The notes below the pieces were generated by a model that was not told the origin of the DNA, searched no databases, and was given only the letters and a program-made list of their open reading frames with translations. Positions 6,001-22,914 of a stretch of DNA of 64,000 bases are shown one piece after another. Origin of the DNA: Auanema rhodensis (taxonomy: Eukaryota; Animalia; Nematoda); assembly GCA_964057225.1 (NCBI GenBank), contig OZ059894.1, positions 18,476,001 to 18,540,000 of the forward strand. The letters are read 5' to 3'. A program made the translations under genes and the position numbers. Every line of letters starts with the position of its first letter. Position 1 is the stretch's first letter.

Positions 6001-7251
6001 GTTTCCATGTACACTCAACATTGCTTCCAAAAACATTTTGACAAAAATTTTTTCGAAAAATTTCAAAATAATTTAGCAAAAAGTAGATGTTTTTAGATTC
6101 CTTTTTTCAAGGCAAAGACGATGGACAATGTTATTCAACGAAAAAAATAATTCTTCAGGGTGAAAATCGAGGATATAAGTGTGAACTTATATCAGTTGAT
6201 ATCTCGGTGCATTTTTAAGCTAGCGCAAATCTGATAACACAGATCGACGCAGCTTAAAAATCCGCATCGAATGCACTATACTACATTGAGAAACGCTTAA
6301 TACAAAAATTAGTTATGATCGTTTGAAAAATGATGCATTAGTGTATGTTGAGTTTCCATGTACACTCAACATTGCTTCCAAAAACATTTTGACAAAAATT
6401 TTTTCGAAAAATTTCAAAATAATTTAGCAAAAAGTAGATGTTTTTAGATTCCTTTTTTCAAGGCAAAGACGATGGACAATGTTATTCAACGAAAAAATTA
6501 ATTCTTCAGGGTGAAAATCGAGGATATAAGTGTGAACTTATATCAGTTGATATCTCGGTGCATTTTTAAGCTAGCGCAAATCTGATAACACAGATCGACG
6601 CAGCTTAAAAATCCGCATCGAATGCACTATACTACATTGAGAAACGCTTAATACAAAAATTAGTTATGATCGTTTGAAAAATGATGCATTAGTGTATGTT
6701 GAGTTTCCATGTACACTCAACATTGCTTCCAAAAACATTTTGACAAAAATTTTTTCGAAAAATTTCAAAATAATTTAGCAAAAAGTAGATGTTTTTAGAT
6801 TCCTTTTTTCAAGGCAAAGACGATGGACAATGTTATTCAACGAAAAAATTAATTCTTCAGGGTGAAAATCGAGGATATAAGTGTGAACTTATATCAGTTG
6901 ATATCTCGGTGCATTTTTAAGCTAGCGCAAATCTGATAACACAGATCGACGCAGCTTAAAAATCCGCATCGAATGCACTATACTACATTGAGAAACGCTT
7001 AATACAAAAATTAGTTATGATCGTTTGAAAAATGATGCATTAGTGTATGTTGAGTTTCCATGTACACTCAACATTGCTTCCAAAAACATTTTGACAAAAA
7101 TTTTTTCGAAAAATTTCAAAATAATTTAGCAAAAAGTAGATGTTTTTAGATTCCTTTTTTCAAGGCAAAGACGATGGACAATGTTATTCAACGAAAAAAA
7201 TAATTCTTCAGGGTGAAAATCGAGGATATAAGTGTGAACTTATATCAGTTG
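1..7251. repeat. 351-bp tandem satellite array, left part (~21 monomers, runs off the window start)
   Basis: TCTTCAGGGTGAAAAT recurs at 1, 352, 703 and onward (period 351). Copies differ by only a few substitutions. One monomer is internally deleted near 1791. Confidence 0.99.
7246..7251 (+). repeat. Target-site duplication, left copy (CAGTTG)
   Basis: Left junction ...TTATAT-CAGTTG|AGTAG and right junction CTACT|CAGTTG-ATATCTC. The uninterrupted monomer has a single CAGTTG. 6 bp is the known Polinton TSD length. Confidence 0.97.
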
Positions 7252-7291
7252 AGTAGAGAGCCGTGCAAAATTTACTAACCACGCCCCCAAA

Positions 7292-7405
7292 CAGCTGTCA
7301 AAAACATACTTTTGGGGGCGTCAGCTGCTAAAAACATACTTTTGGGGCGCGTCAGCTGTCAAAAACATATTTTTGAGCGTCAGCTGTTAAAATCATATTT
7401 TGGGA
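7292..7405 (+). repeat. Subterminal ~28-31 bp tandem repeats (4 copies), each starting with CAGCTG
   Basis: CAGCTG at 7292, 7322, 7353 and 7381, each followed by AAAA(A/T)CATA(C/T)TTT. Mirrored at ~22761-22874. Confidence 0.9.
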
Positions 7406-7842
7406 TCATGGTTCATGGATTTTCCTTTTTTAAATATAAAAGTCATGATTTAAAGCATGATTTTTTTTTAAAATCAAATTTAAATATGCTTTTTCAAATG
7501 TATATATATAATTGTATATTTTGAATTAATTTTTAAATATATTAAGTGAAAAAAAAAATCTAAATTTTAAATATTTAAATTATATTTAAATTTTATATTT
7601 ATAAATTATATTTAAATTATATTTAACCTTTATATATATAAATTATATTTAAATTTTAAATATATTAATTTGTTTTAAAATTTTATTACTTTATTCATTT
7701 ATTATATTTATTAATTATGTTTGTTTACTTATTTTGTTTATTATGTTATAATATTGTGTTTTTTTACTGTTTTTATTTTTAAAGATTAATAAAATTTTTG
7801 CATGTTGATAATTTTGTTCACCGTACTTGTTATGGGTAATTC

Positions 7843-7992
7843 AATGGAACACATATCGAAGGTTAATTCGATAAGAACGATATGAAATACCAAAATTTAA
7901 TGGAACACATATCGAAGGTTAATTCGATAAGAACGATATAAAATACCAAAATTTAATGGAACACATATCGAAAGTTAATTCGATAAGAACGA
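7843..7992 (+). repeat. 56-bp tandem repeat (~2.7 copies) within the TIR
   Basis: AATGGAACACATATCGAA recurs at 7843, 7899 and 7955. Mirrored at ~22109-22258. Confidence 0.92.
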
Positions 7993-8388
7993 CATTAAAT
8001 TATTAATTTTTGAAATTACAAATTGTTATTAATTATATTTATTCTAACAAGTAAAGGTTTCAAATTATAATAAAAGATTAGTTTTAAACTTTATTTTACT
8101 AATATAACAATACAATAACTAAATAGAGCACACATTGAAGGTAAATACAATAAGATTAACAAACAGTTGCGCTGACCTCAATGAAACGCATAAAGTTAAT
8201 TTAATAAGAACTAATAACAAAAATTAATCCGACGGGGACAATAAAAACAGATGTATTCAATAAGCTTATTTATTTTAAAGTTTATCGCAACTGCTAGTTT
8301 TGACAGCTGTACCCAAATCCATGTTACATAACAAATTACAATGCCAACAGCAATGTGTAGACTGATATATTCATTATATCAAGGTACA

Positions 8389-11300
8389 ATGGCTGCTAAT
8401 AGGTTGTGTCTTTTTGATTATTTGTTTGTAAACTTTTTCTTTTTTCAGTTATAAACGTTTATGTGAAGAGCTAGGATTTGATTATGAAGAGATTAATCAG
8501 CTCAGGTAATTTAACAATATTTTGAATCTTTATATATATTTTGTTTTTTAGTAAACGTATAAAGTTTACCGAGGCTGGTGGGATCGAGCTCTGTGAGCCC
8601 ACATCACCCACTTTTAACAGTGGGCCCTCATCATCAAGGGTTATTGAAGTAATAACCTTGGATGACAGTGATGAGTAAGCGATATTAAAAATTATAACAA
8701 TTAGTTTTTTCTTTTTAAGAGAATGGGATCCCGCTACCCCATCAACCAGTGGAGGGCAAGTCGGATATGGAGCGGCTTTCAACGATGTCTGTAAAATAGA
8801 GGTGCGATCTTTTATTTACATATCATTTCATAATATATCTTTTGAAACATGAAATTTTCTCTTGCTCCAGTTGCATATTTTGAAAACATTTTGAAATTTA
8901 TTCCTCTTTTTCAATTGCATTCATAAAATTCTCTCTCTCTCATCTTTACATTTCATCTCAATCTATATCTTTTATCAAACAAATTGCAAGTATTTTGAAA
9001 TTTACATATTCATTCTTTTGAACAGCATTCATTTTAAAATCTTTACATTTCATCTCACTATCTATCTATCTTTCCTCATCTATCTTTCTTTCAACCAATT
9101 TTGAATTCTTACAAATTATAAATATTTCAAACATTTTGAACTAGTAAAATAATAAAACACAATCTTGACCTTTTCATTTATTTTTTAACATTAACAAATG
9201 TTTATAAAAGTTTTTTCAAAGTTGAAAAAAAAACAACTTTATATTTAAAAATCAAATGCCATTTATTTTTAAACATTAATAAAAATAATTTAAAGAAAAG
9301 TAAATTTATTAAAAGTTATAAACAAAAATTATTTATATTTAAACTAAAAGCGTATAACCATTATAAAAAGTGTGTATTATAGTGGTCACACCGACGCATA
9401 AAACGCACTGGTCGGTTTACCAACGTGGTCGTTAGATCGCTCACGTTCCCACATTTGGAAGCCATTAATGAGCCAATGCATGTTGTCATGCCGCGGCTAT
9501 TTAATGAGTTTCTTGATCGGTGCCTTGCTGAAAGTGGTGTGCCAGATAAACAAAAAGCGCTATTTTGTCTATCAATAGAGCACCCATCCTTTGAAAAGGG
9601 ATCCATATTTATGGATTTCCGTAGAAGGGAGCATTTGGATGGCGTTGCCATCATGAATGCCATCAGCAAGGTGCAGCAATCAAAGCGAGAGGCTGTAATT
9701 AGCCAGGCAATGAATATTGAAATGTATGTGTTTGATGAGAGACCAGTGCAGCCAAGCCTGATGCCTGGTGAAGGTAGAGTTGGTTTCTATTTTGATGCCG
9801 AACTCAAAATACCTGGCACAATTGAGAACACTGATACACATTGCCTGGCTAGAGCAGCAGTTGTGGGAATGTGGAGAGCCGATGAAGAGGCAGCAGAAGA
9901 TGTTGTTGAGAAGCGGAGGATTCAAAATCTTCGTCGCAACTACATCTTGTTGCCAAATCAACCACATCATACCAATTTACTGAATAGGTGTGGTATTTCT
10001 GTACATTTACCAAATTATAATTTGAACCATTTAAATATTATTGCAAGTTGTAATACAGACTATAAGTTTGTAGTATACGCTAGGCCACCTGGACAGCGTA
10101 TGTACGCTATTCAGCGTATCTTTAATGAAACGGCTAGCAAAGTGGTAACACTAGGCTACCGAAATAATCATTATGACTGTATTACAACTTGTAGTAGATC
10201 ACAGATTTTTGATGGTATTATATGCCAACACTGTAAATTATCTTACAAAACAGTGTTGCATAGATGTAAAGCCAAGTGTAAGAAATGCCACACCTTAAAA
10301 TGTAATTCGATGGAAAATGTGGTTGAGAGTAGCATAAGATGTGATAGTTGTAGAGTTTTGTTCAAAACTCGTCAATGCTTTGACAGGCATATTAGAAAAA
10401 CATGTCGAATGTTTAAGGTAATTTAAAAAAATATATATAAAATTGAACATGACTAAATTCAGACATGTGAAAACTGTGATCATTATCACAGAGTACGTGC
10501 TGATAGACCGCACAATTGCAATGAGAAATTTTGCAAAAAGTGTGGGCAAACAAAGCCTGAAGATCATTCTTGTTGTTGGGTACCACCTAACGACAAGAAG
10601 AAGGATCAGTTAAAAAAGAGGCAAGAGAAATACAAGGTTTGTATTTTACATCTTTACAAGTGTAATGCTTACTTGTTTAAGATTATTTTCTATGACTTTG
10701 AAACGGTTGTGTTAAAAAGCGGTACAAATGTTCATGAATATGCAGATGAACAATGGCCCAATATGGTTGTGTATAACAAATTTTGTGAAAGTTGTATAGA
10801 CGCCAATTCATGCGAAAAATGCACAACCAAGGAGGGCCATTTTGGGTACCAACAAGGTGATAGTGAATGGTCTGTAACAGATCGTTTCCTTGATTGGTTA
10901 CTCAACTCTGTTGAGAATGATAATGCAATTTTGATTGCGCATAATGGTTCACGCTTTGACATACATTTTTTGGTGTCTAGGCTGATAAACCGTGGAATAT
11001 ATCCTGATCCAATTTTAAATGGGACCAAGATTATAAGCATGGTTGTCAAGCCTTTAAGAGGTCAAAAATTTAATCATTTATATTTTAAAGATAGTTATTT
11101 ATTAGTGCCTTTACCCCTATCAGCGTTACCCAAGGCATTTGGTGTACCTGATATGAGTAAAGGACAGTTTCCTTACCTCTATAATCACCCAATAAATTAT
11201 GGCAAAGTGTTGCCATCTTTACCACCAAAACAGTACTATTGTACTGCTAGAATGAAAGCAGAAGACCTAGCTTCATTCGATATTTGGTATGAAGAGCGTA

Positions 11301-13609
11301 ATCAAAGAGCGTTTGATTTTGATGAAGAGCTTTTGGAATATTGTAGGACAGATGTCCGTATTTTAACCAACTGTATGAAAGTTTACATGAAGTTGGCAAC
11401 CGCCACCACTGGCTGGAACCCTGTCATACAATGTATGACATTTGCCAGTTTCTCTTTATTCCAGGCAAGTTTTTTAAAATACAAGCATTTTCAAAACTAT
11501 TATATTACAGTTGAAAATGAACCACATTAAAGAGAACCAAGTGGGTATTCTGCCCGAGACTGGTTATTATGCCGGTCAAAAGCAGAGTATAATAGCCATA
11601 AAGTATATAAAATGGCTAGAACAAGGATTGGGCCGCCCATTAATGCATAAGCTTAATGGTGGCGAATTTGCAGTGAGAGTAGATGGCCATCGCTATCTAC
11701 TCGATGCTTATGACCCCGTTGCCAATCATGGCTATGAGGTGAGTAATTTGTAATAAATGTAAAAAATGCAAATTTTTGTAGATTAATGGTTGCATTTACC
11801 ATGGTTGCCCCCAGTGCACCAACAAGAGCGCTATAGCACCAGGCAGAAATGGTGAAACAATGGAAGAGGTAATTGTGACTTTTTTAATCATTTTAATTTG
11901 AAAAATTTAGGTTTATGATAAAACCATGAAAAGGCTTGAAGCAATTCAAAGCCAAGGCATTAGTGTTACCACAGTGTGGGAGCACGAAATTAATGCTCAA
12001 ATTTCGGCCAATGAAGAAATGGCGAAATTTATGCGTGAAACAAATGTTGTTACACGCTTGGCACCTAGAGATGCCTTTACCGGTGGCCGCACCCAGACAT
12101 ATAAGCTTTTGGCACAAGCTTCGGATAGATACTCGCTCGAGTATGTGGACTTTTGTTCACTATATCCATATGTCACCGCTTTTGATGCCTATTACCCTGT
12201 AGGTAATCCCAAAGTTATTACTGAGGGTTTCAAAAGCTTTGAGACATGTTGCCCATACAAGGGGCTAGTAAAATGTGACGTGCTTGCACCCACAAATTTG
12301 CTGTACCCTGTATTAGGCACACGTATTGGCGGTAAACTAATTTTTACAAACTGCCGCACTTGTGCAGTCAAAAGTAAAAATGTAGCATGTGAGCACCAGA
12401 ATGATGTAAATGCTAGAAAGCTGCATCTAACTGTGACACATGTTGAGCTCGAGTGTGCCATACAACGTGGCTATAAAGTGCTTAATGTGCATGAGGTGTG
12501 GCACTGGGAAGAATGGCAACAAGGCGGCCTGTTTAAAGAATTTGTACAAAAGTACATCAAAATTAAACAAGAGGCGTCGGGCTGGCCAAAGCCAAACATG
12601 ACAGAGGAAGAAAAGGTATGTTTTAACAAAAGTATCACATTAAATAGAATTTTACAGGTGATTTATCTCCAAGAGCACGAGGAGAACACTGGTGTTGCTC
12701 TGGAGAGCAATAAAATTGAGAAGAATGCTGCCATGCGTAGCATTGCCAAACTGCAGCTAAATAGGTTTGTAAACTTTTTAAAACAATACATTACAAATTT
12801 GCTTATAGTGTCTGGGGTAAAATGGGTCAAAGACCTGATAAAGCCCAAACCAAGATTATTGGTGTTGAGGACCCAGAAATTGGTAGGATCATTACTGATC
12901 CTGCAAGGGAACTCACTGGGTTCAAAATTGTGGATAATGTTGCGTACTGCACAACAGTACCAGAGGATTCACATTTGGCACCACCGCCTTTTACAAATGT
13001 AGCTATTGCGGCCTATACAACCGCTCATGCAAGGCTACTATTGTATAAGGCAATGGAGAAAATTGGAAAGAATTTGGTGTATACAGGTAATGTTATACTT
13101 GTATTCAATTTAAACTTACATTATTTAGACACGGATTCTCTAATTTATCAAAGATGCCTAGATGAGCCAGATCCAATTGAGGATATGAAGGGTGAATGGT
13201 TAGGTAAACTAACCTCTGAAATACCCGATGGCTGGTCAATGACCAAGTTTGTGTCACCAGCGGCAAAAGTTTATAGTTATAAACTTGTAAATGCAGCTGG
13301 TGATGTAAAATATGTAACAAAGGCAAAGGGAGTGGTAAGTACGAGCTTTGACTTTTCAAATAATTTTATAATTTTCAGACGTTGGACCACACGGCAGCGT
13401 CAGTGGTAAACTTTGAAAGTATGGAGCGACTGGTTCGCGGACTCGTTATGGATGGAGAGAAATTGGTTTTAAAAACCAATACGACATTGTTAAAGAGGCA
13501 ACTCGGTGCCATATCCACAATGGATATGACAAAAAGTACTAGAGTTGTAATGGATAAACTTTGTTATCTACAAGATTATAGTACTTTACCCTACGGTTAT
13601 TGTGAATAA
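8389..13609 (+). CDS. pPolB: Protein-primed family B DNA polymerase (pPolB), spliced, ~1369 aa. Exons 8389-8402, 8449-8505, 8552-8674, 8720-8801, 9383-10417, 10463-10636, 10682-11464, 11511-11738, 11782-11868, 11911-12615, 12658-12764, 12809-13086, 13129-13334, 13379-13609
   Basis: Removing 42-46 nt introns (plus one of 581 nt) gives a single 4110-nt frame. Motifs: ExoI FYDFET, ExoII HNGSRFD, ExoIII YCRTDV, motif A DFCSLYP, motif B KLQLNSVWGK and motif C YTDTDS (B and C form only after splicing), KAKG, C-terminal LPYGY. The four 5' exons and the 581-nt intron are less certain than 9383-13609. Confidence 0.93.
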
Positions 13610-13745
13610 TATATTTGAATTTATAAATTTTTATCTTGTATATATTTGTATTTATAAAATTTTATCATTGTACATGTATATTTTTAAAAATAGTTGTATT
13701 AATAAATTTTATTCTTAAATCTTTTAAAGAATTTTATTACATACA
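13610..13745. terminator. AT-rich convergent 3' region of pPolB and MCP with poly(A) signals on both strands
   Basis: AATAAA at 13701 (+) and TTTATT at ~13708 and ~13733 (AATAAA on the - strand). Confidence 0.5.
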
Positions 13746-15080
13746 TTACAAACTGGTATCAATATATGGAGCACGATTGTTGTCAATGGAAAGAATAGAG
13801 TCATACTCTGCATAAACAATTGCATATAAGCCCTCTTGCGGCGTTTGTTGACCAAATTCCAATTTCAAGGCTACATTACCTTGTCGTATAACATCAAATA
13901 ACTCTGACGAATGCACAGTAGGAGAAATATCAAATACAAAAAATGTGAAACCAGCTTTATACATTGCTGGTGTAATACCATTGGATGAATCTGTACGACC
14001 AAGTCCCAAACCTTCCAGCATGTCAATATATGCTGTGGCATAGGAAGATCGCCATTCTAAATTATAAGGACGGGTAGGTATTACCCTATTGTTGAGCGTC
14101 AAGTATATATTTTTCAAATCAAACGGTTTAAAGTTGAATGGCGAATGTTTAAAAGTACCATTATAGGCGTGTGCGCCAACAAGACCTACTACAACACGTT
14201 TTGGTGTGTGAGACGTGAATAATATATTATTAGGTGAATCCAAGCGGCCTCCTTCTATGAAATAAGAGCGCATTTTCACTGATGTCATGGGGTAGTGTAT
14301 TCGATCCTTTGCGAGTTTATCTTCTATAGCCATAGCTAATCCAGCGTTTAGATCAAACTCTTGAATGAGCAAATGTACATCGCTGATATCTACTTTCAAA
14401 TTTGGAAACTCCTCCTTTAATGTAGTATCCTTGTTTTCATTATTCCAGCCTAGAGTGTCAATTAAAAAGTTATCACGGTTTGGATATGCAGTTAGCTCCA
14501 TTTTTGAATAGTTTACAAACAGTCGCTCTTGATTAAATAGGTCGATACTGACGGGAGCAGCCATCTCACACAATATGCCATTTTTTACAAGTGCTTGACG
14601 CGTTCTAAATCCAGCACTGGATGCATTATCTATATATCTATCAGCATAATAGCCTGATATGGCAAGTTTGCTCTCTTTAACATCGTTGCTATACATTAAA
14701 ATATTCTCGATATATGTTTTATAGGCATGATTCACGGTAGAGTCATACACGCTAACATCACCAATTTTCAAATGATACGAATGTATTAAACTGGCAGCAA
14801 ATTGTTGACATGGTGCAAAAACAAGGTTGTCTGGTACTGGATCACCGTTTGTGGTTACAATTTTAAATTTTACATTCAACCAACATCTTCTCAGATTGAG
14901 GAATGATTTGGAATTTTGAGCTATAACAAATTCCCATGGTCCTTGAGGAAGAAAAGTATTTTTCAAAGGGACTTGTACAGTACGAGTGGATTCAACACCT
15001 AATGCCGACGCTGGTATATCACCATAGTTGATATTAGGTAAAAGGGCTTGTGCTGATTTTGAATCTATCAATTTAGCCAT
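13746..15080 (-). CDS. Major capsid protein (double jelly-roll; Polinton PY-type), 444 aa
   Basis: Intact, beta-rich ORF of typical size. Polinton MCP-like segments include PKRVVVGLV, YNGTFKHSPFNFKPF, GFTFFVFDISP and IVYAEYD. Recognised by recollection of the family and by gene context. Confidence 0.88.
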   Translation of the reverse strand: MAKLIDSKSAQALLPNINYGDIPASALGVESTRTVQVPLKNTFLPQGPWEFVIAQNSKSFLNLRRCWLNVKFKIVTTNGDPVPDNLVFAPCQQFAASLIHSYHLKIGDVSVYDSTVNHAYKTYIENILMYSNDVKESKLAISGYYADRYIDNASSAGFRTRQALVKNGILCEMAAPVSIDLFNQERLFVNYSKMELTAYPNRDNFLIDTLGWNNENKDTTLKEEFPNLKVDISDVHLLIQEFDLNAGLAMAIEDKLAKDRIHYPMTSVKMRSYFIEGGRLDSPNNILFTSHTPKRVVVGLVGAHAYNGTFKHSPFNFKPFDLKNIYLTLNNRVIPTRPYNLEWRSSYATAYIDMLEGLGLGRTDSSNGITPAMYKAGFTFFVFDISPTVHSSELFDVIRQGNVALKLEFGQQTPQEGLYAIVYAEYDSILSIDNNRAPYIDTSL

Positions 15081-15533
15081 TTAAATGTGAAACGACCGCT
15101 CACGAGTGATGCACAACCGCTTATGAGGTTTTGTGGTTTTGCGTCGTCGCCGTTTGCCCAAGCCGGTAAGATCTCGTATAGCTTGCCGGCCGGCTGTTTT
15201 AAGAGTTTCCTTGATATTATCGCCTTTCAGCACCCCATTAACAATTTCATTACCAGTTTTCAGCAACTGTCCGCCAAGAGGTGAATTTACAACTGGACTA
15301 TTGCTTACAGCATTGGATAAGGCGTTTCTTCCGGCATTGATGAGATTTTGGGCTATAGGTGATTGAATGATGCGTGGTAGAAATGATGCCAAAGTTGCCA
15401 AAATACCACCCAAACCATGACCCCTCTGCATTCCACGTTGAAACATCATTCCGCTAAATGGGGCGCCACCCATTTGTTGATTTAAAAGTGTTGTCCATTG
15501 AATAGAGTTGACATCCAAAAGGAGGTGCGGCAT
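15081..15533 (-). CDS. Putative virion core / membrane-active protein, 150 aa
   Basis: First ATG at 15533; its stop codon abuts the MCP start. Contains QRGHGLGGILATLASFLPRII, a Polinton-type QxGxG followed by an amphipathic helix, and a basic tail LTGLG-KRRRRK. Confidence 0.78.
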   Translation of the reverse strand: MPHLLLDVNSIQWTTLLNQQMGGAPFSGMMFQRGMQRGHGLGGILATLASFLPRIIQSPIAQNLINAGRNALSNAVSNSPVVNSPLGGQLLKTGNEIVNGVLKGDNIKETLKTAGRQAIRDLTGLGKRRRRKTTKPHKRLCITRERSFHI

Positions 15534-15584
15534 ATCGAACCGCACGCGCGCAATACAAAAGTTACACTAGATCATTCTACTAAA

Positions 15585-16040
15585 ATGTATTCGTCTGAAA
15601 TAGTATCACTATTGCAATCTGTCCCCAGCACTCGGAAACTATTCCTCGGTGTATATAGCGCTGATACTCTACCCAAAACGCGTCGTAAAAACTTTGCACT
15701 TGTCGTAAATACTGACACACATGATAAACCAGGCACACATTGGCAGGTCATCTTTGTCCGTAACAAGCAAGCCTATTTTTTCTGTAGCTTGGGATATAAA
15801 ATGAACAAGTACATTCAAAATTATCTGGCCAAATATAAAAAGGTAAAAATTAATACTTGCAAACCACAACGTTTAATTGAATACACTTGTGGTGGCTATG
15901 TGGTATTTGTAATACTAATGTTGTCGGCTGGTAATTCATTTGAAAGCATTTGTTCATTTTTTAAACTATTGAAAAATGATGATGTCTTTATTAAAGCGTT
16001 TATGCATAAAGTATTCGACTATAAATTGACTACTATATAA
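15585..16040 (+). CDS. Adenain-like (clan CE) cysteine protease for virion maturation, 151 aa
   Basis: FLGVYSAD, VNTD..PGTHW (catalytic His) and PQ.....TCGGY (oxyanion Gln and catalytic Cys). First ATG at 15585. Confidence 0.9.
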   Translation: MYSSEIVSLLQSVPSTRKLFLGVYSADTLPKTRRKNFALVVNTDTHDKPGTHWQVIFVRNKQAYFFCSLGYKMNKYIQNYLAKYKKVKINTCKPQRLIEYTCGGYVVFVILMLSAGNSFESICSFFKLLKNDDVFIKAFMHKVFDYKLTTI

Positions 16041-16245
16041 GAAATTTGTCATTAATAACCTGCTACATTACGTGATCAGTTATGAATATTCCTTGTCACT
16101 GTGAATTATGTGTCAAATACACGTTGGAGCAATCTAAACCAGCGCCTTTATACAGGAGAATGTTGAAATGTATTTCAGTGCCATTTATTAAAGGTATAGC
16201 ATTGGGATTGGGCTTTTGTACAACACTAGTCATATTATTGCTCAT

Positions 16246-16254
16246 TATATAAAA
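16246..16254 (+). promoter_or_regulatory. Candidate TATA box for the zinc-finger gene
   Basis: TATATAAAAG 40-48 bp upstream of the ATG at 16294. The AT-rich background limits certainty. Confidence 0.45.
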
Positions 16255-16293
16255 GTGGGTTGATTGCGTGTGGTCGTTTTTCATTTTCCTCTA

Positions 16294-16758
16294 ATGGAAC
16301 TTTTATGTAACAAATATTGTGGTACATGCAAGGAAATATTTTCTTCAACCAAGCATTTTAGTGATCACGTTTTGAAAAGACATGCAGGGATTCAACCCAT
16401 ATGTAACAATTATATCAGCAATGCTGACTTTATTCAAAAATATGGACATTTGGATGGTGTTCGTAGACGTTTGTGCCCTCATTGTAGTGAAACTTTTGGA
16501 ACAAGATTCAATTGTGAGCGTCATATTCGGCGTATTCATAATAATAATGGAACGAATGGTGAAGATGGTGATGGAAATGATACCAGCAAACCCTTTGAAA
16601 AAGCTGAGGAGTTTGTACATTCAACCCAATCAAAAAGATGCCGCAGCAATAGTGACGGAGAACATTCACAACACGAGCCGAGCGACAAACAAAACTGCCC
16701 TAAACTATCTTTTAAACCTTCGAAAATAAAAATGTGGTATTGTATAACTGTTGAATAA
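16294..16758 (+). CDS. Two-finger C2H2 zinc-finger protein, 154 aa
   Basis: Fingers CGTCKEIFSSTKHFSDHVLKRH and CPHCSETFGTRFNCERHIRRIH, then a low-complexity tail. TATATAAAA lies ~45 bp upstream and AATAAA overlaps the stop. Confidence 0.82.
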   Translation: MELLCNKYCGTCKEIFSSTKHFSDHVLKRHAGIQPICNNYISNADFIQKYGHLDGVRRRLCPHCSETFGTRFNCERHIRRIHNNNGTNGEDGDGNDTSKPFEKAEEFVHSTQSKRCRSNSDGEHSQHEPSDKQNCPKLSFKPSKIKMWYCITVE

Positions 16759-16763
16759 AACGT

Positions 16764-17621
16764 TTATTTCATATTTTTAACATGTAATGTAACAACTGTA
16801 GAACCATAATTAAATTGCATAGGACGACCAAATTCATCTAAAATTTCAATACGTATGGTATCGAGTGTTTGTCTAGTGATTGGTACATAACGAATAGGAT
16901 TAAATGTTTTGGCAATCATTTTACCAAATTCAGTAGGAGGTGGTACAGGTAAACATGCAAGTAAATTAGCTTTCACATTACCAAGAATGGAATATTCTAC
17001 AATATCACAATATATATACATTGTATTAATGTTATTTGAAAAATCAATGGGACGCCTGGCTATTATTGTATCGTTGATGTTTTTATTTTCAAAACCAAGA
17101 AAATATGCAAAATCATCACCAAGCGTTGCATTCATTAATAGTCGCTTGCTTGTTACAAACTCTATGCGCTGCAATGTTTTGTTAAACTGAAATGTGGCAT
17201 CTGCGAGCATTTCTTCCACTAGCTTAGCCTCAGCCTGGCGATTATTATACCATTTTTTTACATCTTCATCTTTATCTATTAAACTTTTTATACGTGCTTC
17301 TTCCTCAGCTCCAAGAGGCTTTGTATTGTTGGCGATAAATGATTCTCTTCCAGCATTGATTCCGCGTATTATTTCATCACCATTTGCATAGTTGCCTTTA
17401 GGCAAGTGTAGAATAAATTTTCTATTGGAAAAACGTAGTGTATAAGATAAATCTTTTTGAACATTTAATATAGAACAAGGAAAAATGATGTCTGTCAGCC
17501 CAATGCAATATCTATTATTGCGTAGCCTTAGTGTTTCAGGTAATCTGGTAAGAAACACTGATGATGTATTACTTTTTTCAGAGTCAACTGATGATGGAAG
17601 AGTAATGTAAAAATCATCCAT
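16764..17621 (-). CDS. Minor capsid protein / penton (single jelly-roll; Polinton PX-type), 285 aa
   Basis: N-terminal FYITLPS and C-terminal YIYCDIVE..ILG...LL, RYVPI, IRIEILDEFGRP..F..G...VTLH are typical of Polinton pentons. Confidence 0.87.
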   Translation of the reverse strand: MDDFYITLPSSVDSEKSNTSSVFLTRLPETLRLRNNRYCIGLTDIIFPCSILNVQKDLSYTLRFSNRKFILHLPKGNYANGDEIIRGINAGRESFIANNTKPLGAEEEARIKSLIDKDEDVKKWYNNRQAEAKLVEEMLADATFQFNKTLQRIEFVTSKRLLMNATLGDDFAYFLGFENKNINDTIIARRPIDFSNNINTMYIYCDIVEYSILGNVKANLLACLPVPPPTEFGKMIAKTFNPIRYVPITRQTLDTIRIEILDEFGRPMQFNYGSTVVTLHVKNMK

Positions 17622-17652
17622 GACAAACCACCACTTGATACGTGTACACTAT

Positions 17653-17672
17653 TGCAAATGAAATCATTTGCA
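17653..17672. promoter_or_regulatory. Palindrome at the centre of the divergent penton/ATPase intergenic region
   Basis: TGCAAATGA-AA-TCATTTGCA has perfect 9-bp arms and sits at the midpoint of the 79-bp gap. Confidence 0.5.
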
Positions 17673-17700
17673 TTTTAGGTACATTTACGAGTGGTTGATT

Positions 17701-18348
17701 ATGGTTTTCAGCTTCAAACTACCCAGTCAGACAACTGTAATAGGTGCTACCCAATGCGGTAAAACAACCCTCATAAAGCACATATGTGAAAATACTGAAA
17801 AGTTTTTCAACGTCCCCATTGATAGAATATTCTGGTTTAGTCAATGTGGGTCATCGTCAGGTGTACCAATAAATGATGAGCGTTTAATAATTATTCAAGG
17901 GCCTCCTGATCCTGATTTGATAAAAGAACAAAAGGGAGTAAATACTATACTAGTGCTGGATGATTTGATGAACTTTTTTTCATCGAATAAAGCAGCAAAG
18001 GAATTACTCAACAACATTTTTACAGTATGGGCTCATCACTGGAATTTGGCAGTGTTTAATCTTGTGCAAGCGGCATTTCAACTGGACAGGACCAGTCGAA
18101 TCAATAGTACATATATAATACTGATGAAAAGTCATTCAGATATATTACAAATACGTAATTGTCTGCAGCAATTATTTGGGCCACGTTTCAAAAATGCTCT
18201 AGAGGCGTATGATGATGCAATGTCTACTCCCTATAGTCATTTACTGATTGACAATCATCCTTTAACAAGTGAGAAGCAGCGTATACTATCTGATATAACA
18301 GCGGAGAACCCTATTGTTTATGTTGCCAGAAATGTGTTTAGTGTTTAA
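17701..18348 (+). CDS. Genome-packaging ATPase (A32/FtsK-HerA-like), 215 aa
   Basis: Walker A GATQCGKT, Walker B ILVLDD, then AHH, LVQ and SRINSTY segments as in Polinton ATPases. First ATG at 17701. Confidence 0.92.
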   Translation: MVFSFKLPSQTTVIGATQCGKTTLIKHICENTEKFFNVPIDRIFWFSQCGSSSGVPINDERLIIIQGPPDPDLIKEQKGVNTILVLDDLMNFFSSNKAAKELLNNIFTVWAHHWNLAVFNLVQAAFQLDRTSRINSTYIILMKSHSDILQIRNCLQQLFGPRFKNALEAYDDAMSTPYSHLLIDNHPLTSEKQRILSDITAENPIVYVARNVFSV

Positions 18349-18360
18349 AGTGCTTGTTCA

Positions 18361-18669
18361 ATGAGTGGTCGTATTTTGTCAAATTTTAACTTTTTGTCTT
18401 CTTGCGCCAAAACTCCTTGTTCTGTTTACTCATTTTCTTTTGCACAAATTGAAATTATTGTTGAAATTGTATTTAATATTGTGAAAAATAATAATTTTCT
18501 TTTAACTAACAAGGAATATAAAACCCTCTTGCCCATATCTTCATTATTACGTCAAATAGCTTTGATACGCACACCGGAAAAGGCTAAATCATTATTGGCA
18601 ACGATTTCACACAAACAATTGAAAACAATAGTTACATGTGGTATTGCCTATTTTGGTTTTAAATCATGA
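18361..18669 (+). CDS. Small Polinton conserved-type hypothetical protein, 102 aa
   Basis: Tightly packed: 12 bp after the ATPase stop, with an ATGA overlap into the next ORF. The IEIIVEIVFNIV segment resembles a small Polinton protein family (recollection only). Confidence 0.68.
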   Translation: MSGRILSNFNFLSSCAKTPCSVYSFSFAQIEIIVEIVFNIVKNNNFLLTNKEYKTLLPISSLLRQIALIRTPEKAKSLLATISHKQLKTIVTCGIAYFGFKS

Positions 18670-19382
18670 AGCTCAACCATAAATATCGACTAATTCCTGT
18701 CGACGAGGAAACAATTAATATAGACAAGTTTGATGCAGAGCTCAAGCTTTTACGAGAAAATAAAGCTATACCCGACTATAAAAAGGCTGAACTATACGAA
18801 GACTTGATTGCTCGTCTCAAAAACTATAGAGAAAGTATAGATGCGCCCATATCAGTACAAGTGGAAAATGCTGATCCACCTCTATTGCCAGAATACAAGT
18901 TGCCAAGAAAGTATAACAATTTGTGGGAGAAATTTCCAGAGGTGCGCACAAACAAGAGTAATCAACTTGTGATTAATAATGAGGCTGTACCAAACACGAA
19001 TATTACAAAAATTTTAGATTTTGTATTGGATAAAACAAAAACGGAGCCCAATGGATTTTCAGTCTTGTCAAAGTTTTTAGCCAGTAAAGGCGTACCTAGT
19101 TCTAACAAGAAACAAACTAGAAGAGAGTCGGCTGACAATGATTCAGTTGACGTTGTAACTAGAGCTGAACCGGCTGTTACAGACTTGGACTCTACTATAT
19201 TACCTAGAACGCCTCGTCATCGTAAAGCTGTTATTAGATATTCACCATCACCGGTTCGTACACTCAAAAGTAAAAGGTCAAAGACTTTTGATACTGCCGC
19301 CGAATCATATTACACACCACAAGAAGGAAACTCACAGAATGGCCAAGGTCGTAAAAGGTTCTACATTAGATTATGGAAATGA
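18666..19382 (+). CDS. Hypothetical putative core protein, 238 aa
   Basis: Intact ORF between the ATPase cluster and the integrase. Begins KYRLIP, has a basic S/T-P-rich C-terminal half, and ends QNGQG-RKRFYIRLWK. Confidence 0.75.
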   Translation: MKLNHKYRLIPVDEETINIDKFDAELKLLRENKAIPDYKKAELYEDLIARLKNYRESIDAPISVQVENADPPLLPEYKLPRKYNNLWEKFPEVRTNKSNQLVINNEAVPNTNITKILDFVLDKTKTEPNGFSVLSKFLASKGVPSSNKKQTRRESADNDSVDVVTRAEPAVTDLDSTILPRTPRHRKAVIRYSPSPVRTLKSKRSKTFDTAAESYYTPQEGNSQNGQGRKRFYIRLWK

Positions 19383-20406
19383 TATTTTGGCGAGCATTTA
19401 TTACGATATAAAACATCCAGCTTCATATACATCAGCCAAGAATTTATTATCGCAAGCACGAAAACATGGCATTTCAAAGGTACAAGTTGATGATTTTTTG
19501 CAAGATTCTGAAACTTTTACACGGCATAAACCAACCAGAATGCGTATGCAAACTAGAAAGACTAGAGGATGTGGTCGATTTCTAACAGTGCAAGCAGATT
19601 TGGTTGATATGCAAAAATATAAAAAATTAAACGACGGCTATGCTTACATGTTGACCATGATTGATGTTTATACACGCATGTTATATGTTAGGCCTTTGAA
19701 AACTAAAGGTGGTATAGAGGTTGCTAGTGCATTTGAAAATTTATTCAAGAATTTTATACCAATTCAGTTGATTACTGATAATGGCACAGAGTTTTATAAT
19801 AGTCATTGTGAAAAACTATTCAAAAAGTTTGCCATACTGCACGGATCTACAAGTTCACCACAAAAGGCTGCAATGGTGGAGCGAGCAAATAGAACTTTAA
19901 AAACACGCATGATGAAATATCTCTATTACAAGAATAATCATCGATGGATTGATATCCTAGATGACTTGGTTGAAGGAATAAATAAATCTTATAATCGGTC
20001 AATTAAAATGCGGCCCATTGATGTTAAAGCAAATATATTCATTGAAGAATATGCACCAGCTGTTAAAAGCCGCTTTAAAATTGGTGATACTGTTCGCATA
20101 AGCAAAAATAGGCGTACTTTTGAAAAAAGCTACGAGTCTGGATATACAATGGAGCTGTTCACAATTGATGAGGTTGTAACCGGAAACCCAACCGTGTATA
20201 AACTTGTAGATTATAATGGTGAACGTATAAAGGGAATATTCTACGAACCTGAACTTGTCTTGGCTACTAATAAAAGCAACAAGTACTATATAGAAAAAGT
20301 TTTAAAAGAGCGTACTCGAAGCGGTAAACGTCAAGTATTTGTAAAATGGAGTGGATATCCCGACAACTTTAATGAATGGATAGATGCAGAAAATTTAAAT
20401 GTATAA
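19339..20406 (+). CDS. Retroviral-like (RVE, DDE) integrase with C-terminal chromodomain, ~355 aa
   Basis: D in QADLVD, D in ITDNGTEF, E in VERANRTLK. SH3-like FKIGDTVRIS. Chromodomain YYIEKVL...VFVKWSGYP...NEWI. First ATG at 19339. Confidence 0.95.
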   Translation: MAKVVKGSTLDYGNDILASIYYDIKHPASYTSAKNLLSQARKHGISKVQVDDFLQDSETFTRHKPTRMRMQTRKTRGCGRFLTVQADLVDMQKYKKLNDGYAYMLTMIDVYTRMLYVRPLKTKGGIEVASAFENLFKNFIPIQLITDNGTEFYNSHCEKLFKKFAILHGSTSSPQKAAMVERANRTLKTRMMKYLYYKNNHRWIDILDDLVEGINKSYNRSIKMRPIDVKANIFIEEYAPAVKSRFKIGDTVRISKNRRTFEKSYESGYTMELFTIDEVVTGNPTVYKLVDYNGERIKGIFYEPELVLATNKSNKYYIEKVLKERTRSGKRQVFVKWSGYPDNFNEWIDAENLNV

Positions 20407-20700
20407 TTTTTCAATGTTATAAACAATTGTAATTATAATAAATGATTTATTTGATATATCGCATAATGTAACAATAAAAAACCAGCAAAATACAAACAAC
20501 AATTCAACCTGGAAAAAAAAATGTAGACTATTCAAATTTTCAAATTCTTACCAGTTGGTTGATCATTCGTCCTCAATTGATGAGCCATTGATGGATATTC
20601 GCAAGAGCTGGAAAAAAAAAATGTTACGGCTGAGAATATAAAAATGCCACATAACAAAACAAGAATAAAACGCCAATTGTACTATTTGTGCTTGTTGTAG

Positions 20701-21285
20701 TCAAAATGAAGGATCAAAGCGGATAAACATGTTCAGGTTGAGTGCTTCTGGACTTAGTTTAAAGTAGAATACATTCTGCTTATAACCAAAAGTCTTTACA
20801 GTAGCCTCATCTGCATATATAACAATATAGCCCATATTGTTCAACAATTGCTTGCACGTCATGGTGTTATAAGAGCGCATCTAAAAAATGATAAAATTGA
20901 AAATAAATAAATATGCAAGCTTACATTAATAGAGAACTTTTCGGGCTTATAGTGACGAAACTCCTTCAAAAGACCCAACGCATCATTCCTTCCTCTACAC
21001 TTTATACAGAGGCTGAAACAGTGATACTCGTCTATAACCTGCAATGATTCCCTACAAGTTTTGCAGAGACAAATTGGTCTCATTAATACACTCCTTGGTG
21101 GAGTGCTCTCTCTCAGAATCTCCATCTGCTTTATTGGTGAATCTAAATTAAAGATTTAAAAAATACAAGTTAAGGTTCATACCAAAACTTGTAAAATTTG
21201 GAGCTGGTGTGGGTGGTCGTGGTACTTCAGGTTCAGGCGATTTGCGCACCACATTTGTCACATCAGCAAGTACAGCACGCTTCAT
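20701..21285 (-). CDS. Spliced orphan gene, ~166 aa, with N-terminal D-box and Cys/His cluster. Exons 21285-21183, 21142-20925, 20880-20701
   Basis: GTATGA...TTTAG 40-nt and GTAAGC...TTTTAG 44-nt introns join three exons in frame (501 nt): MKRAVLADVTNVVRKSPEPEVPRPPTPAPNFTSFDSPIKQMEILRESTPPR...CLCKTC...HCFSLCIKC...FSIN-MRSYNTMTCKQLL...FIRFDPSF*. Confidence 0.75.
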
Positions 21286-21919
21286 TTCCGCTAAAGATCC
21301 AACTTTCTAAAATATAAGGCAAACTTGCAGAGAGGAGCAGTCTATGGCGATTGGCAAAGAGTGGCAGGAGATGGTGAAACGTCGGATCCTCGGATAGTTG
21401 GCAGAGCTGAAATGTAAATGTAGCAAAATTGTCAACCTTTTATACAAAGATTTTTGTAAAGTACAACCCATTGTGTTACAATCAAGTTTGCTGATGAAAT
21501 TCTCTTATTAATTAGATTTTACAGCATATTTATGCAGATATACTCATCTTATCGACAGTTGCCAGCAGTTGGCGCACTCTGAACCTGTAAACAATCTGCA
21601 TATTAATTAGTTTTTACATCTCTTTAAACATTATTGTTTACCGTTTGTGCCATAAACAACAGCCATCTCTGTAAAACATTTAGGCTTTTTAAACTTTGCT
21701 TAATAGCTCATATATTATTCATAGTATACTTTTACACCCATATTGTAGCACAAAACATATGACTGCCAACGTTTTATATGTGAAAAATATTTCATTCTTT
21801 AATATTTAATAATGATTATATTACGAAACTAAAACTTTTGAAATGTTAAAATGATTATACTATATTTAAACCCCCACAGTGCAGTTATTACTGTTTATTA
21901 ACCATCGATATGCGTGGCG

Positions 21920-22914
21920 TTGAGGTCAGCGCAACTGTTTGTTAATCTTATTGTATTTACCTTCAATGTGTGCTCTATAGAGTTATTGTATTGTTATATT
22001 AGTAAAATAAAGTTTAAAACTAATCTTTTATTATAATTTGAAACCTTTACTTGTTAGAATAAATATAATTAATAACAATTCGCAATTTCAAAAATTAATA
22101 ATTTAATGTCGTTCTTATCGAATTAACCTTCGATATGTGTTCCATTAAATTTTGGTATTTCATATCGTTCTTATCGAATTAACCTTCGATATGTGTTCCA
22201 TTAAATTTTGGTATTTCATATCGTTCTTATCGAATTAACTTTCGATATGTGTTCCATTGAATTACCCATAACAAGTACGGTGAACAAAATTATCTACATG
22301 CAAAAATTTTATTGATCTTTAAAATAAAAACAATACAAACACAATACAATAAAAAATAAACAAAATAAGTAAACAAACATTATTAATAAATATAATAAAG
22401 AAATAAATAAAATTTAAGAACAAATTTATATATTTAAAATTTAAATATAATTTATATATAAAATTTAAAGTTTAAATATAATTTATATATATAAAATTTA
22501 AATATAATTTAAATAATTAAAGTTTAAATAAAATTTATATATATATAAAATTTAAATATAATTTAAATATTTAAAATTAAGATTTTTATTTTTACTTAAT
22601 ATATTTAAAAATAATTGAAAATATATACATACATTTGAAAAAGCATATTTAAATTTGATTTAAAAAAAAAAAAAAATTAAAAAAAAAAATCAAAAAAAAA
22701 AAAAATCATGCTTTAAATCATGACTTTTATATTTAAAAAAGGAAAATCCATGAACCATGATCCTAAAATATGATTTTAACAGCTGACGCTCAAAAATATG
22801 TTTTTGACAGCTGACGCGCCCCAAAAGTATGTTTTTAGCAGCTGACGCCCCCAAAAGTATGTTTTTGACAGCTGTTTGGGGGCGTGGTTAGTAAATTTTG
22901 CACGGCTCTCTACT
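21920..22914 (-). repeat. Right terminal inverted repeat (~995 bp)
   Basis: Mirror of 7252-8181. It is longer because of a poly-A expansion at ~22662-22705 and extra AT-rich copies. Confidence 0.93.

What the first reader, a model, noticed from the sequence alone, without database searches (positions are those of the whole stretch)
20701..21285. Hidden spliced cargo gene with an APC/C destruction box, CDK-type sites and a zinc-binding cluster
Seen: only the middle exon is in the ORF track. The reconstructed protein starts MK-RAVLADVTN, an excellent RxxLxD(I/V)xN D-box match. It is followed by several S/T-P sites (KSPE, PTPA, SPIK, TPPR) and CxCxxC-x10-HCxxxCxxC. Known: D-boxes are recognised by APC/C-Cdc20/Cdh1, and the APC/C inhibitor Emi1 combines a D-box with a zinc-binding region. 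Inference: a cell-cycle-regulated early protein or APC/C pseudosubstrate that couples element replication to the host cell cycle. I know of no such description for Mavericks, but I cannot search the literature.
Basis: partly seen in the sequence, partly recalled or inferred. Interest (0 to 1): 0.82.

Follow-up and report, generated by a model that had tools for sequence, protein, structure and literature searches.

The report
Maverick D-box gene with splicing switch
A virus-like jumping element, likely of a roundworm, carries a small spliced gene whose protein starts with a close match to the tag that marks proteins for destruction at cell division, and an extra splice seen in transcripts would cut the protein from 166 to 66 amino acids, so the element likely times this protein to the host cell cycle.

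Summary
The gene is real and spliced. It lies in a 15.7-kb Maverick/Polinton, in the known cargo slot between integrase and right TIR. Transcript contigs confirm both predicted introns.

It removes part of the Cys/His cluster and shifts the frame, giving 66 aa instead of 166. Its exon-like GC, one contig entering it, and coding constraint on the last exon suggest an exitron, with the retained form as the working protein.

The D-box (aa 3-11) fits the published consensus at P1, P4, P6, P7 and P9 (shuffle rate 0.001). Two full CDK sites follow. No homologue was found, so conservation is untested, and no fold or APC/C binding could be shown. The LRRL tail, KEN, true ABBA and LxCxE motifs are absent, so it is neither an Emi1 nor an Oncoid member.

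Best reading (0.4): an APC/C substrate confined to S/G2, with an exitron off-switch. Emi1-like inhibitor: 0.2. Chance motif or passenger: 0.4. I found no such Maverick cargo in my literature searches.

The parts
7252..22914 (.). Maverick/Polinton element, 15,663 bp, AGTAGA ends, 6-bp target duplication CAGTTG, inserted in a 351-bp satellite
   Evidence: pPolB, integrase-chromo, protease and ATPase-like hits
21286..21485 (-). 5' region covered by transcript contigs; TATA-like word at 21444, TTTCAG at 21412, no ATG between 21470 and the start
21183..21285 (-). Coding exon 1 (34 codons plus 1 nt), proline-rich, S/T-P at aa 16 and 26
21253..21279 (-). D-box match, aa 3-11 (R-A-V-L-A-D-V-T-N)
   Evidence: consensus
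21143..21182 (-). Intron 1, 40 nt, GT-AG, 20% GC
   Evidence: joint in X1 and X4, loose end in X2
20925..21142 (-). Middle exon when unsplit; full CDK sites at aa 36 and 48; Cys/His cluster aa 59-83 (21071-20997)
21013..21055 (-). 43-nt exitron-like intron (aa 64-78), 42% GC, weak donor GTAGGG and TTTCAG acceptor; removal shifts the frame to a stop at 21004-21002 (66-aa product)
   Evidence: skipped in X1 and X2, entered for 29 nt in X4
20881..20924 (-).
   Evidence: joint in X1, X2, X3
20701..20880 (-). Last coding exon, 59 aa, starts with ATG; predicted small alpha/beta unit; under coding constraint
20509..20551 (-). 3' UTR intron, 43 nt, GT-AG; transcript contig continues to 20463, AATAAA at 20451
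   Evidence: joint in X1 only
19159..20406 (+). Neighbouring integrase-chromodomain gene, convergent with the cargo gene

Best explanation
This is a spliced, transcribed cargo gene of a Maverick element whose 166-aa product is likely a substrate of the host APC/C through its N-terminal D-box, and whose 43-nt internal segment, spliced out in some transcripts, likely works as an off-switch that leaves a 66-aa stub. Shown: gene structure, the three coding-region splices, the motifs, and coding constraint on the last exon. Inferred: (1) Cdc20/Cdh1 plus Apc10 bind the D-box and nearby lysines (K2, K15, K39) are ubiquitinated, so the protein is cleared from mitotic exit through G1 and accumulates in S/G2; (2) the CDK sites at aa 36 and 48 tune this; (3) the Cys/His cluster binds zinc and, with the C-terminal alpha/beta part, is the effector, probably an early regulator or adaptor that acts when host nucleotides and replication factors are available; (4) removing the exitron yields a message that is degraded or encodes only the degron arm.
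For: Splices seen in transcript contigs. The D-box fits RxxLx[D/E][hydrophobic]xN of PMC5717348 and shares 6 of 9 positions with the Hsl1-derived peptide that binds Cdc20 at 18.6 uM in PMC12401543. The strict pattern occurs in 0.11% of protein shuffles and 0.03% within the first 50 aa; RxxLxxxxN occurs in 0 of the element's 13 other ORFs (3,516 aa). Two full CDK sites in the first 55 aa, shuffle P=0.019. Exitron GC 18/43 versus 26/127 in the three other introns (Fisher P=0.008) and like its flanking exon (P=0.86). A diverged copy in X4 differs from the last exon at 17 listed sites: 11 silent and 6 replacing in this frame, versus 3 and 1 silent in the other two frames; 1 of 17 at codon position 2 (P=0.0096). 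The 2 SNPs listed inside the coding exons of the near-identical expressed copy (21250, 20961) are both silent in the retained frame. Lysines beside the degron and the lack of LRRL, KEN or ABBA motifs favour substrate over inhibitor. Many viruses engage APC/C (PMC13524340).
Against: No homologue of exon 1, so D-box conservation is untested. The strict motif occurs once in the six frames of 96 related Polinton-type loci (546,530 nt), so it is not a common Polinton feature. P3 is Val (small unbranched is preferred), P7 Val bound weakest of the three aliphatics, and P10 is not N/S. Predicted D-boxes are common in viral proteins: KSHV has several, and its lytic cycle is APC/C-independent (PMC7307157). 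The truncating form is the one assembled in X1 and X2; the retained form rests on one contig entering by 29 nt, which could be a splicing intermediate. The last exon has its own ATG, so its constraint does not strictly require retention. A stop-free 43-nt intron arises by chance 42% of the time. X1-X4 come from one study, at depths of about 3-7, and the diverged copy is one contig at depth 3.6 with 7 of its 24 differences not shown.
Confidence: 0.4

Rival explanations
1. Emi1-like pseudosubstrate inhibitor: the D-box occupies the coactivator site and the Cys/His region blocks the catalytic module, pushing the host cell into an S-like state with raised nucleotide pools for the element's own polymerase; the exitron disarms it.
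For: Same order as Emi1: D-box, linker, zinc-type region. Viral APC/C inhibition raises nucleotide pools in CAV (PMC13524340, abstract and discussion passages). A frameshifting exitron would suit a harmful protein.
Against: No LRRL or IR tail, KEN box or C-box. The ABBA-like word at aa 126 lacks the Phe of the published consensus and has a shuffle rate of 0.11. No Pfam match for any exon at E<=10. Four lysines lie in the first 62 aa.
Confidence: 0.2
2. The D-box is a chance match in a disordered N-terminus, and the protein is an orphan zinc-binding accessory factor unrelated to APC/C.
For: The pattern was picked after the fact in a very large scan; 0.07 strict matches are expected per shuffled 13.7 kb of this element. 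Three positions are suboptimal. No conservation data.
Against: All five key positions match directly after the start codon of a proven gene, with full CDK sites nearby.
Confidence: 0.25
3. A captured host cell-cycle gene or fragment that rides as a passenger; the D-box is inherited and may work, but does nothing for the element, and the 43-nt splice is cryptic host splicing of a foreign or decaying message.
For: Nematode Mavericks take up intron-bearing host genes in this slot (bioRxiv 10.1101/2022.07.12.499685). The exitron has a perfect TTTCAG acceptor and a weak donor.
Against: No cellular homologue among 1.84 billion representatives for the middle exon (the single hit is a repetitive protein). 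A copy about 85% identical keeps the frame under constraint.
Confidence: 0.15
4. A rival on gene structure only: the 43-nt segment is an ordinary intron, and the working long protein uses the other frame of 21142-21056 through a 5' arrangement not seen here, so it may lack the CxCxxC motif or even the D-box.
For: After removal, a second frame is stop-free across both halves of the middle exon and joins the last exon in frame. The segment is removed in 2 of the 3 runs that reach it.
Against: That frame has no ATG and meets a stop at the observed intron-1 junction. All observed intron-1 joints use 21143/21182. The segment has exon-like GC and holds three of the seven Cys/His.
Confidence: 0.1

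Closest known systems
Intron-bearing cargo genes of nematode Mavericks (wasp proteases, krma kinases; bioRxiv 10.1101/2022.07.12.499685, passages seen)
   Same: Same slot between a TIR and the integrase, introns, no conservation with other elements.
   Different: Much smaller (166 aa against 430 aa for Cwal-KRMA-1), no ubiquitin-like, protease or kinase domain detected; carries a D-box match and a frameshifting exitron.
Emi1/FBXO5 (and Acm1, Mes1) APC/C pseudosubstrate inhibitors (PMC5717348, PMC3690534, passages and one section seen)
   Same: D-box, then linker, then a Cys/His-rich region; CDK-type sites near the degron.
   Different: No LRRL tail, KEN or consensus ABBA; no family match for the Cys/His cluster; the zinc region can be spliced away.
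Adintovirus 'Oncoid' proteins (PMC8502044, passages seen)
   Same: Small Polinton accessory protein with paired CxxC and a cell-cycle-type short motif.
   Different: No LxCxE; lies at the integrase end rather than upstream of PolB; the motif points to APC/C, not Rb.
Viral APC/C modulators: Orf virus PACR, adenovirus E4orf4, HPV E2, CAV Vp3/apoptin, HCMV pUL21a, HIV Vpr (PMC13524340, discussion passages seen)
   Same: A small viral protein aimed at APC/C, if the inference holds.
   Different: In the passages seen these act by APC11 mimicry, PP2A recruitment, coactivator sequestration or APC1 binding; that paper has no occurrence of 'D-box' or 'pseudosubstrate'. No sequence similarity was found.
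Frameshifting or inactivating exitrons, e.g. Drosophila Or88a (PMC10990081, abstract seen)
   Same: A segment spliced from within a coding exon in some transcripts, leaving no full product.
   Different: Here it is in a mobile element; conservation and regulation are not shown.

Membership tests
Maverick/Polinton (host element) | Long TIRs, AG..CT ends, 6-bp target duplication | tested here: met
Maverick/Polinton (host element) | pPolB, retroviral-like integrase, adenovirus-like protease, ATPase | tested here: met
   PF03175 (1.6e-22), PF00665+PF00385, PF00770 (1.5e-3, under the curated cut-off), ATPase families (2.8e-4, under cut-off); protease in 35 and ATPase in 25 of 97 loci
Maverick/Polinton (host element) | Major and minor capsid proteins | tested here: inconclusive
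   444-aa and 294-aa ORFs have relatives in 31 and 41 of 97 loci, but no call named them; the capsid labels are inferred
Nematode Maverick cargo gene | Intron-bearing gene between TIR and integrase, poorly conserved | tested here: met
wasp/krma cargo families | N-terminal ubiquitin-like fold plus protease or kinase domain | tested here: not met
   No Pfam hit at E<=10 for any exon; 166 aa leaves no room for both; definition
APC/C D-box degron | RxxLx[D/E][hydrophobic]xN[N/S] | tested here: met
   P1, P4, P6, P7, P9 match; P10 does not; P3 is branched
APC/C D-box degron | Lies in a disordered region with accessible lysines | tested here: inconclusive
   10 Pro in the first 55 aa, K2, K15, K39; aa 36-53 have pLDDT <50 in a single-sequence model; exon 1 was not modelled
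APC/C D-box degron | Conserved in homologues | tested here: inconclusive
   No homologue of exon 1 found; no whole genome held
APC/C D-box degron | D-box-dependent binding and ubiquitination | not testable with these tools
   No eukaryotic Cdc20/Cdh1 sequence was available to the complex tool; needs an assay
Emi1/Emi2/Rca1 | D-box followed by linker and zinc-binding region | tested here: inconclusive
   Order present in the retained form only; no family or fold match for the cluster
Emi1/Emi2/Rca1 | C-terminal LRRL tail | tested here: not met
   definition
Acm1/Mad3-type inhibitors | KEN box and ABBA motif Fx[ILV][FY]x[DE] | tested here: not met
   No KEN; Ile in place of Phe at aa 126
Adintovirus Oncoid | LxCxE Rb-binding motif | tested here: not met
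   definition
Adintovirus Oncoid | Paired CxxC | tested here: met
   aa 61-64 and 80-83, retained form only
Exitron | Stop-free segment inside a coding exon, removed from only some transcripts | tested here: inconclusive
   Stop-free and exon-like in GC; removed in X1 and X2; kept for 29 nt in one X4 contig, under the 31-nt rule

The most novel reading that the evidence does not exclude
A Maverick encodes its own Emi1-like APC/C pseudosubstrate inhibitor (D-box plus a new zinc-binding fold) to hold host cells in a replication-permissive state, and a frameshifting exitron toggles it between the full inhibitor and a degron-only stub. With a second small spliced gene bearing a SUMO-interaction-like motif at the other end, the element would have adenovirus-like early regions at both termini.
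Probability: 0.2. Interest if true: 0.85.

Novelty: new variant of a known kind. Interest (0 to 1): 0.55.

Why it matters
When and how Mavericks replicate in their hosts is unknown. A cargo protein that is read by, or blocks, the host APC/C would be a direct handle on cell-cycle timing of these elements, and the D-box can be tested with a short reporter. The exitron offers a splice-level switch of a kind I did not find described for Mavericks. If the motif is chance, the gene is still a confirmed, constrained orphan cargo with two splice forms.

Tried and rejected
Homologue searches, all without a true hit. Middle exon: longer proteins; 1.84 billion representatives, 1 hit at 4.8e-5, a six-fold repetitive protein, rejected; viral and metagenome contigs. 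Last exon: longer proteins; viral contigs; GTDB genomes, 1 hit that falls in a 382-aa bacterial ORF sharing one short word, rejected. Proteins of similar length to the single exons were not searched with the word-index tool, and the last exon and exon 1 were not run against the representatives. tblastn of the three exons on 96 integrase-anchored loci: best E 0.02, a proline-rich match. ESM Atlas: only unnamed short clusters at 0.91-0.92 with low recognition, or none. Pfam, PHROGs and PDB sequence scans gave nothing usable.

Single-sequence models: middle exon pLDDT 58; last exon 81.6 for the best model, 55-66 for the other four. Fold searches had no match at E<=0.001 or Z>=5. A two-chain job of the Cys/His part with the last exon plus zinc returned 'no answer'.

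Recalled resemblances to Spt4/RpoE'', polyomavirus small t (CxCxxC) and adenovirus E1A CR3 got no support from these scans and remain unproven leads. The ABBA-like word was rejected. Parts of the element without contig cover say nothing about expression, and genes cannot be ranked by these depths. Run X5 (share 0.08) covers only 20598-20747. No whole genome was held, so other copies could not be collected. Scan-note look-ups for a similar gene found nothing.

Full report
Setting. The finding lies in a 15,663-bp element (7252-22914) with AGTAGA ends, long inverted repeats and a CAGTTG target duplication, inserted in a 351-bp satellite. It encodes pPolB, an integrase with chromodomain, and weaker protease and ATPase matches, so it is a Maverick/Polinton. 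The host is likely a nematode: the nearest named integrase relatives are from Caenorhabditis remanei at 46% and 43%, and the introns are 40-44 nt with TTTCAG-type acceptors. The gene reads leftward from the right TIR towards the integrase. Passages of bioRxiv 10.1101/2022.07.12.499685 describe the region between a TIR and the integrase as a poorly conserved slot with intron-bearing cargo, so a spliced gene here is expected. Its identity is the open question.

Gene structure. Five public runs hold part of the stretch. I laid X1, X2, X3, X5 and X1-X4. All are contigs, X1-X4 come from one study and are RNA only by the tool's guess, but their GT-AG skips show splicing. Intron 21182-21143 is skipped in X1 and X4, and X2 has a 15-nt loose end that reads as the start of the next exon. 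Intron 20924-20881 is skipped in X1, X2 and X3. A 3' UTR intron is skipped in X1. The expressed copy differs from the window at a few sites, so it is another allele or copy.

The missed splice. X1 and X2 also skip 21055-21013 (43 nt). This removes aa 64-78 and shifts the frame, ending the protein at 66 aa. The short product keeps the D-box and four S/T-P sites and loses most of the Cys/His cluster and the whole C-terminal part. Four observations suggest the segment is an exitron and the retained form is the working protein. Its GC (18/43) is unlike the other three introns (26/127; P=0.008) and like its exon (P=0.86). One X4 contig is spliced at intron 1 and runs 29 nt into the segment. A copy about 85% identical in X4 shows coding constraint on the last exon: of 24 differences, 17 were listed and used; 11 are silent in this frame against 3 and 1 in the other two, and 1 of 17 is at codon position 2 (P=0.0096). 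The two SNPs listed inside the coding exons of the near-identical copy are silent. Against this: 29 nt is under the tool's 31-nt rule and may be an intermediate; the last exon starts with its own ATG; being stop-free is not significant (42% by chance); and a second open frame crosses the spliced middle exon, although without ATG and with a stop at the observed junction.

Motifs. Residues 3-11 match the D-box consensus of PMC5717348 at P1, P4, P6, P7 and P9 (section 5 read whole) and share 6 of 9 positions with a Cdc20-binding Hsl1-derived peptide (PMC12401543, passages). P3 Val, P7 Val and P10 Val are suboptimal by the same sources. The strict pattern arises in 0.11% of shuffles of the protein, once in the element's six frames against 0.07 expected per shuffled 13.7 kb, and once in 96 related loci. 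RxxLxxxxN is found in 0 of 13 other ORFs. The pattern was chosen after the fact and the scan is large, so I put a working degron at about 0.6-0.7. Of five S/T-P sites, aa 36 and 48 are full CDK consensus (P=0.019); four S/T-P in the first 55 aa alone give P=0.053. KEN, LxCxE, LRRL or IR tails and a C-box are absent, and an ABBA-like word fails the published consensus. Zinc binding is inferred from seven Cys/His with two CxxC pairs; no call showed it.

Relatives and fold. No homologue was found in any collection searched, and no fold match either (details under Tried and rejected). Only the last exon has a known diverged copy.

Mechanism. I commit to an APC/C substrate (0.4): the D-box and adjacent lysines would clear the protein from mitotic exit through G1, so that its zinc and alpha/beta part acts in S/G2, and exitron removal would switch it off. 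Inactivating exitrons are known elsewhere (Or88a, PMC10990081, abstract and opening text). The Emi1-like inhibitor reading (0.2) fits the order of parts and the benefit of APC/C inhibition to viruses (PMC13524340, passages; Emi1) but lacks every second inhibitory motif. A chance motif (0.25) or a passenger host fragment (0.15) remain; KSHV shows that predicted viral D-boxes need not matter (PMC7307157, passages). The gene-structure rival (0.1) is a separate axis.

Literature. Ten searches were run. 'Maverick + cargo + nematode + cell cycle' from 2022 gave 0 papers. In one search, 40 of 722 papers were listed, and only one fungal genome paper held both a Polinton term and an APC/C term (listing only). 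PMC10748475 (abstract, section 5, term search, supplement search) has no 'D-box' or 'anaphase' in its supplement. PMC8502044 (passages) has no 'anaphase' and defines Oncoids by LxCxE. The cargo lists in the supplements of the bioRxiv Maverick paper were not seen and could hold a relative. Subscription journals are not covered. The adenovirus E1A/E4 layout, small t, Spt4 and SUMO-interaction comparisons are recalled and come from no call.

Verdict. Observation partly confirmed, with a correction that changes the protein. Interpretation plausible but untested. New variant of a known kind (Maverick cargo); interest 0.55.

Noticed in passing
window 8389-8850 (+): A second small gene just inside the left TIR, upstream of pPolB, with predicted AT-rich short introns (8406-8448, 8506-8551, donor at 8675) and a SUMO-interaction-like word (V-I-E-V-I-T-L plus an acidic run, label recalled) at about 8640. 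No relative in 97 loci and no true transcript cover. It sits where adintovirus Oncoid genes lie.
   Followed up: partly
window 9383-13609 (+): pPolB is spread over several ORFs with predicted short AT-rich introns near 10418, 11852-11869, 13077-13087 and 13335; core genes were called intronless in a Caenorhabditis Maverick. No RNA joint was seen, so introns versus breaks is open.
   Followed up: partly
window 7252-22914: No ORF large enough for the fusogen reported in Caenorhabditis Mavericks is left unassigned in the ORF list; not searched for directly.
   Followed up: no
window 16264-16758 (+): C2H2 zinc-finger ORF inside the element, covered by contigs in X1, X2 and X4, no relative in 97 loci.
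   Followed up: partly
window 1-7251 and 22915-64000: The element interrupts a homogeneous 351-bp satellite (137 copies, the 30 shown at 99-100% identity), and the two TIRs differ in their AT-rich middle and share a 56-bp triple repeat.
   Followed up: no
window 21104-21090 (-): T-P-P-x-S at aa 48-52 resembles an Fbw7/SEL-10 phosphodegron (recalled consensus; pattern found); it is kept in both splice forms.
   Followed up: no
window 11650-11880, 16163-16289, 17866-18030, 20685-20850: Transcript contigs with many differences from the window show that diverged sister elements are also transcribed in these samples.
   Followed up: partly
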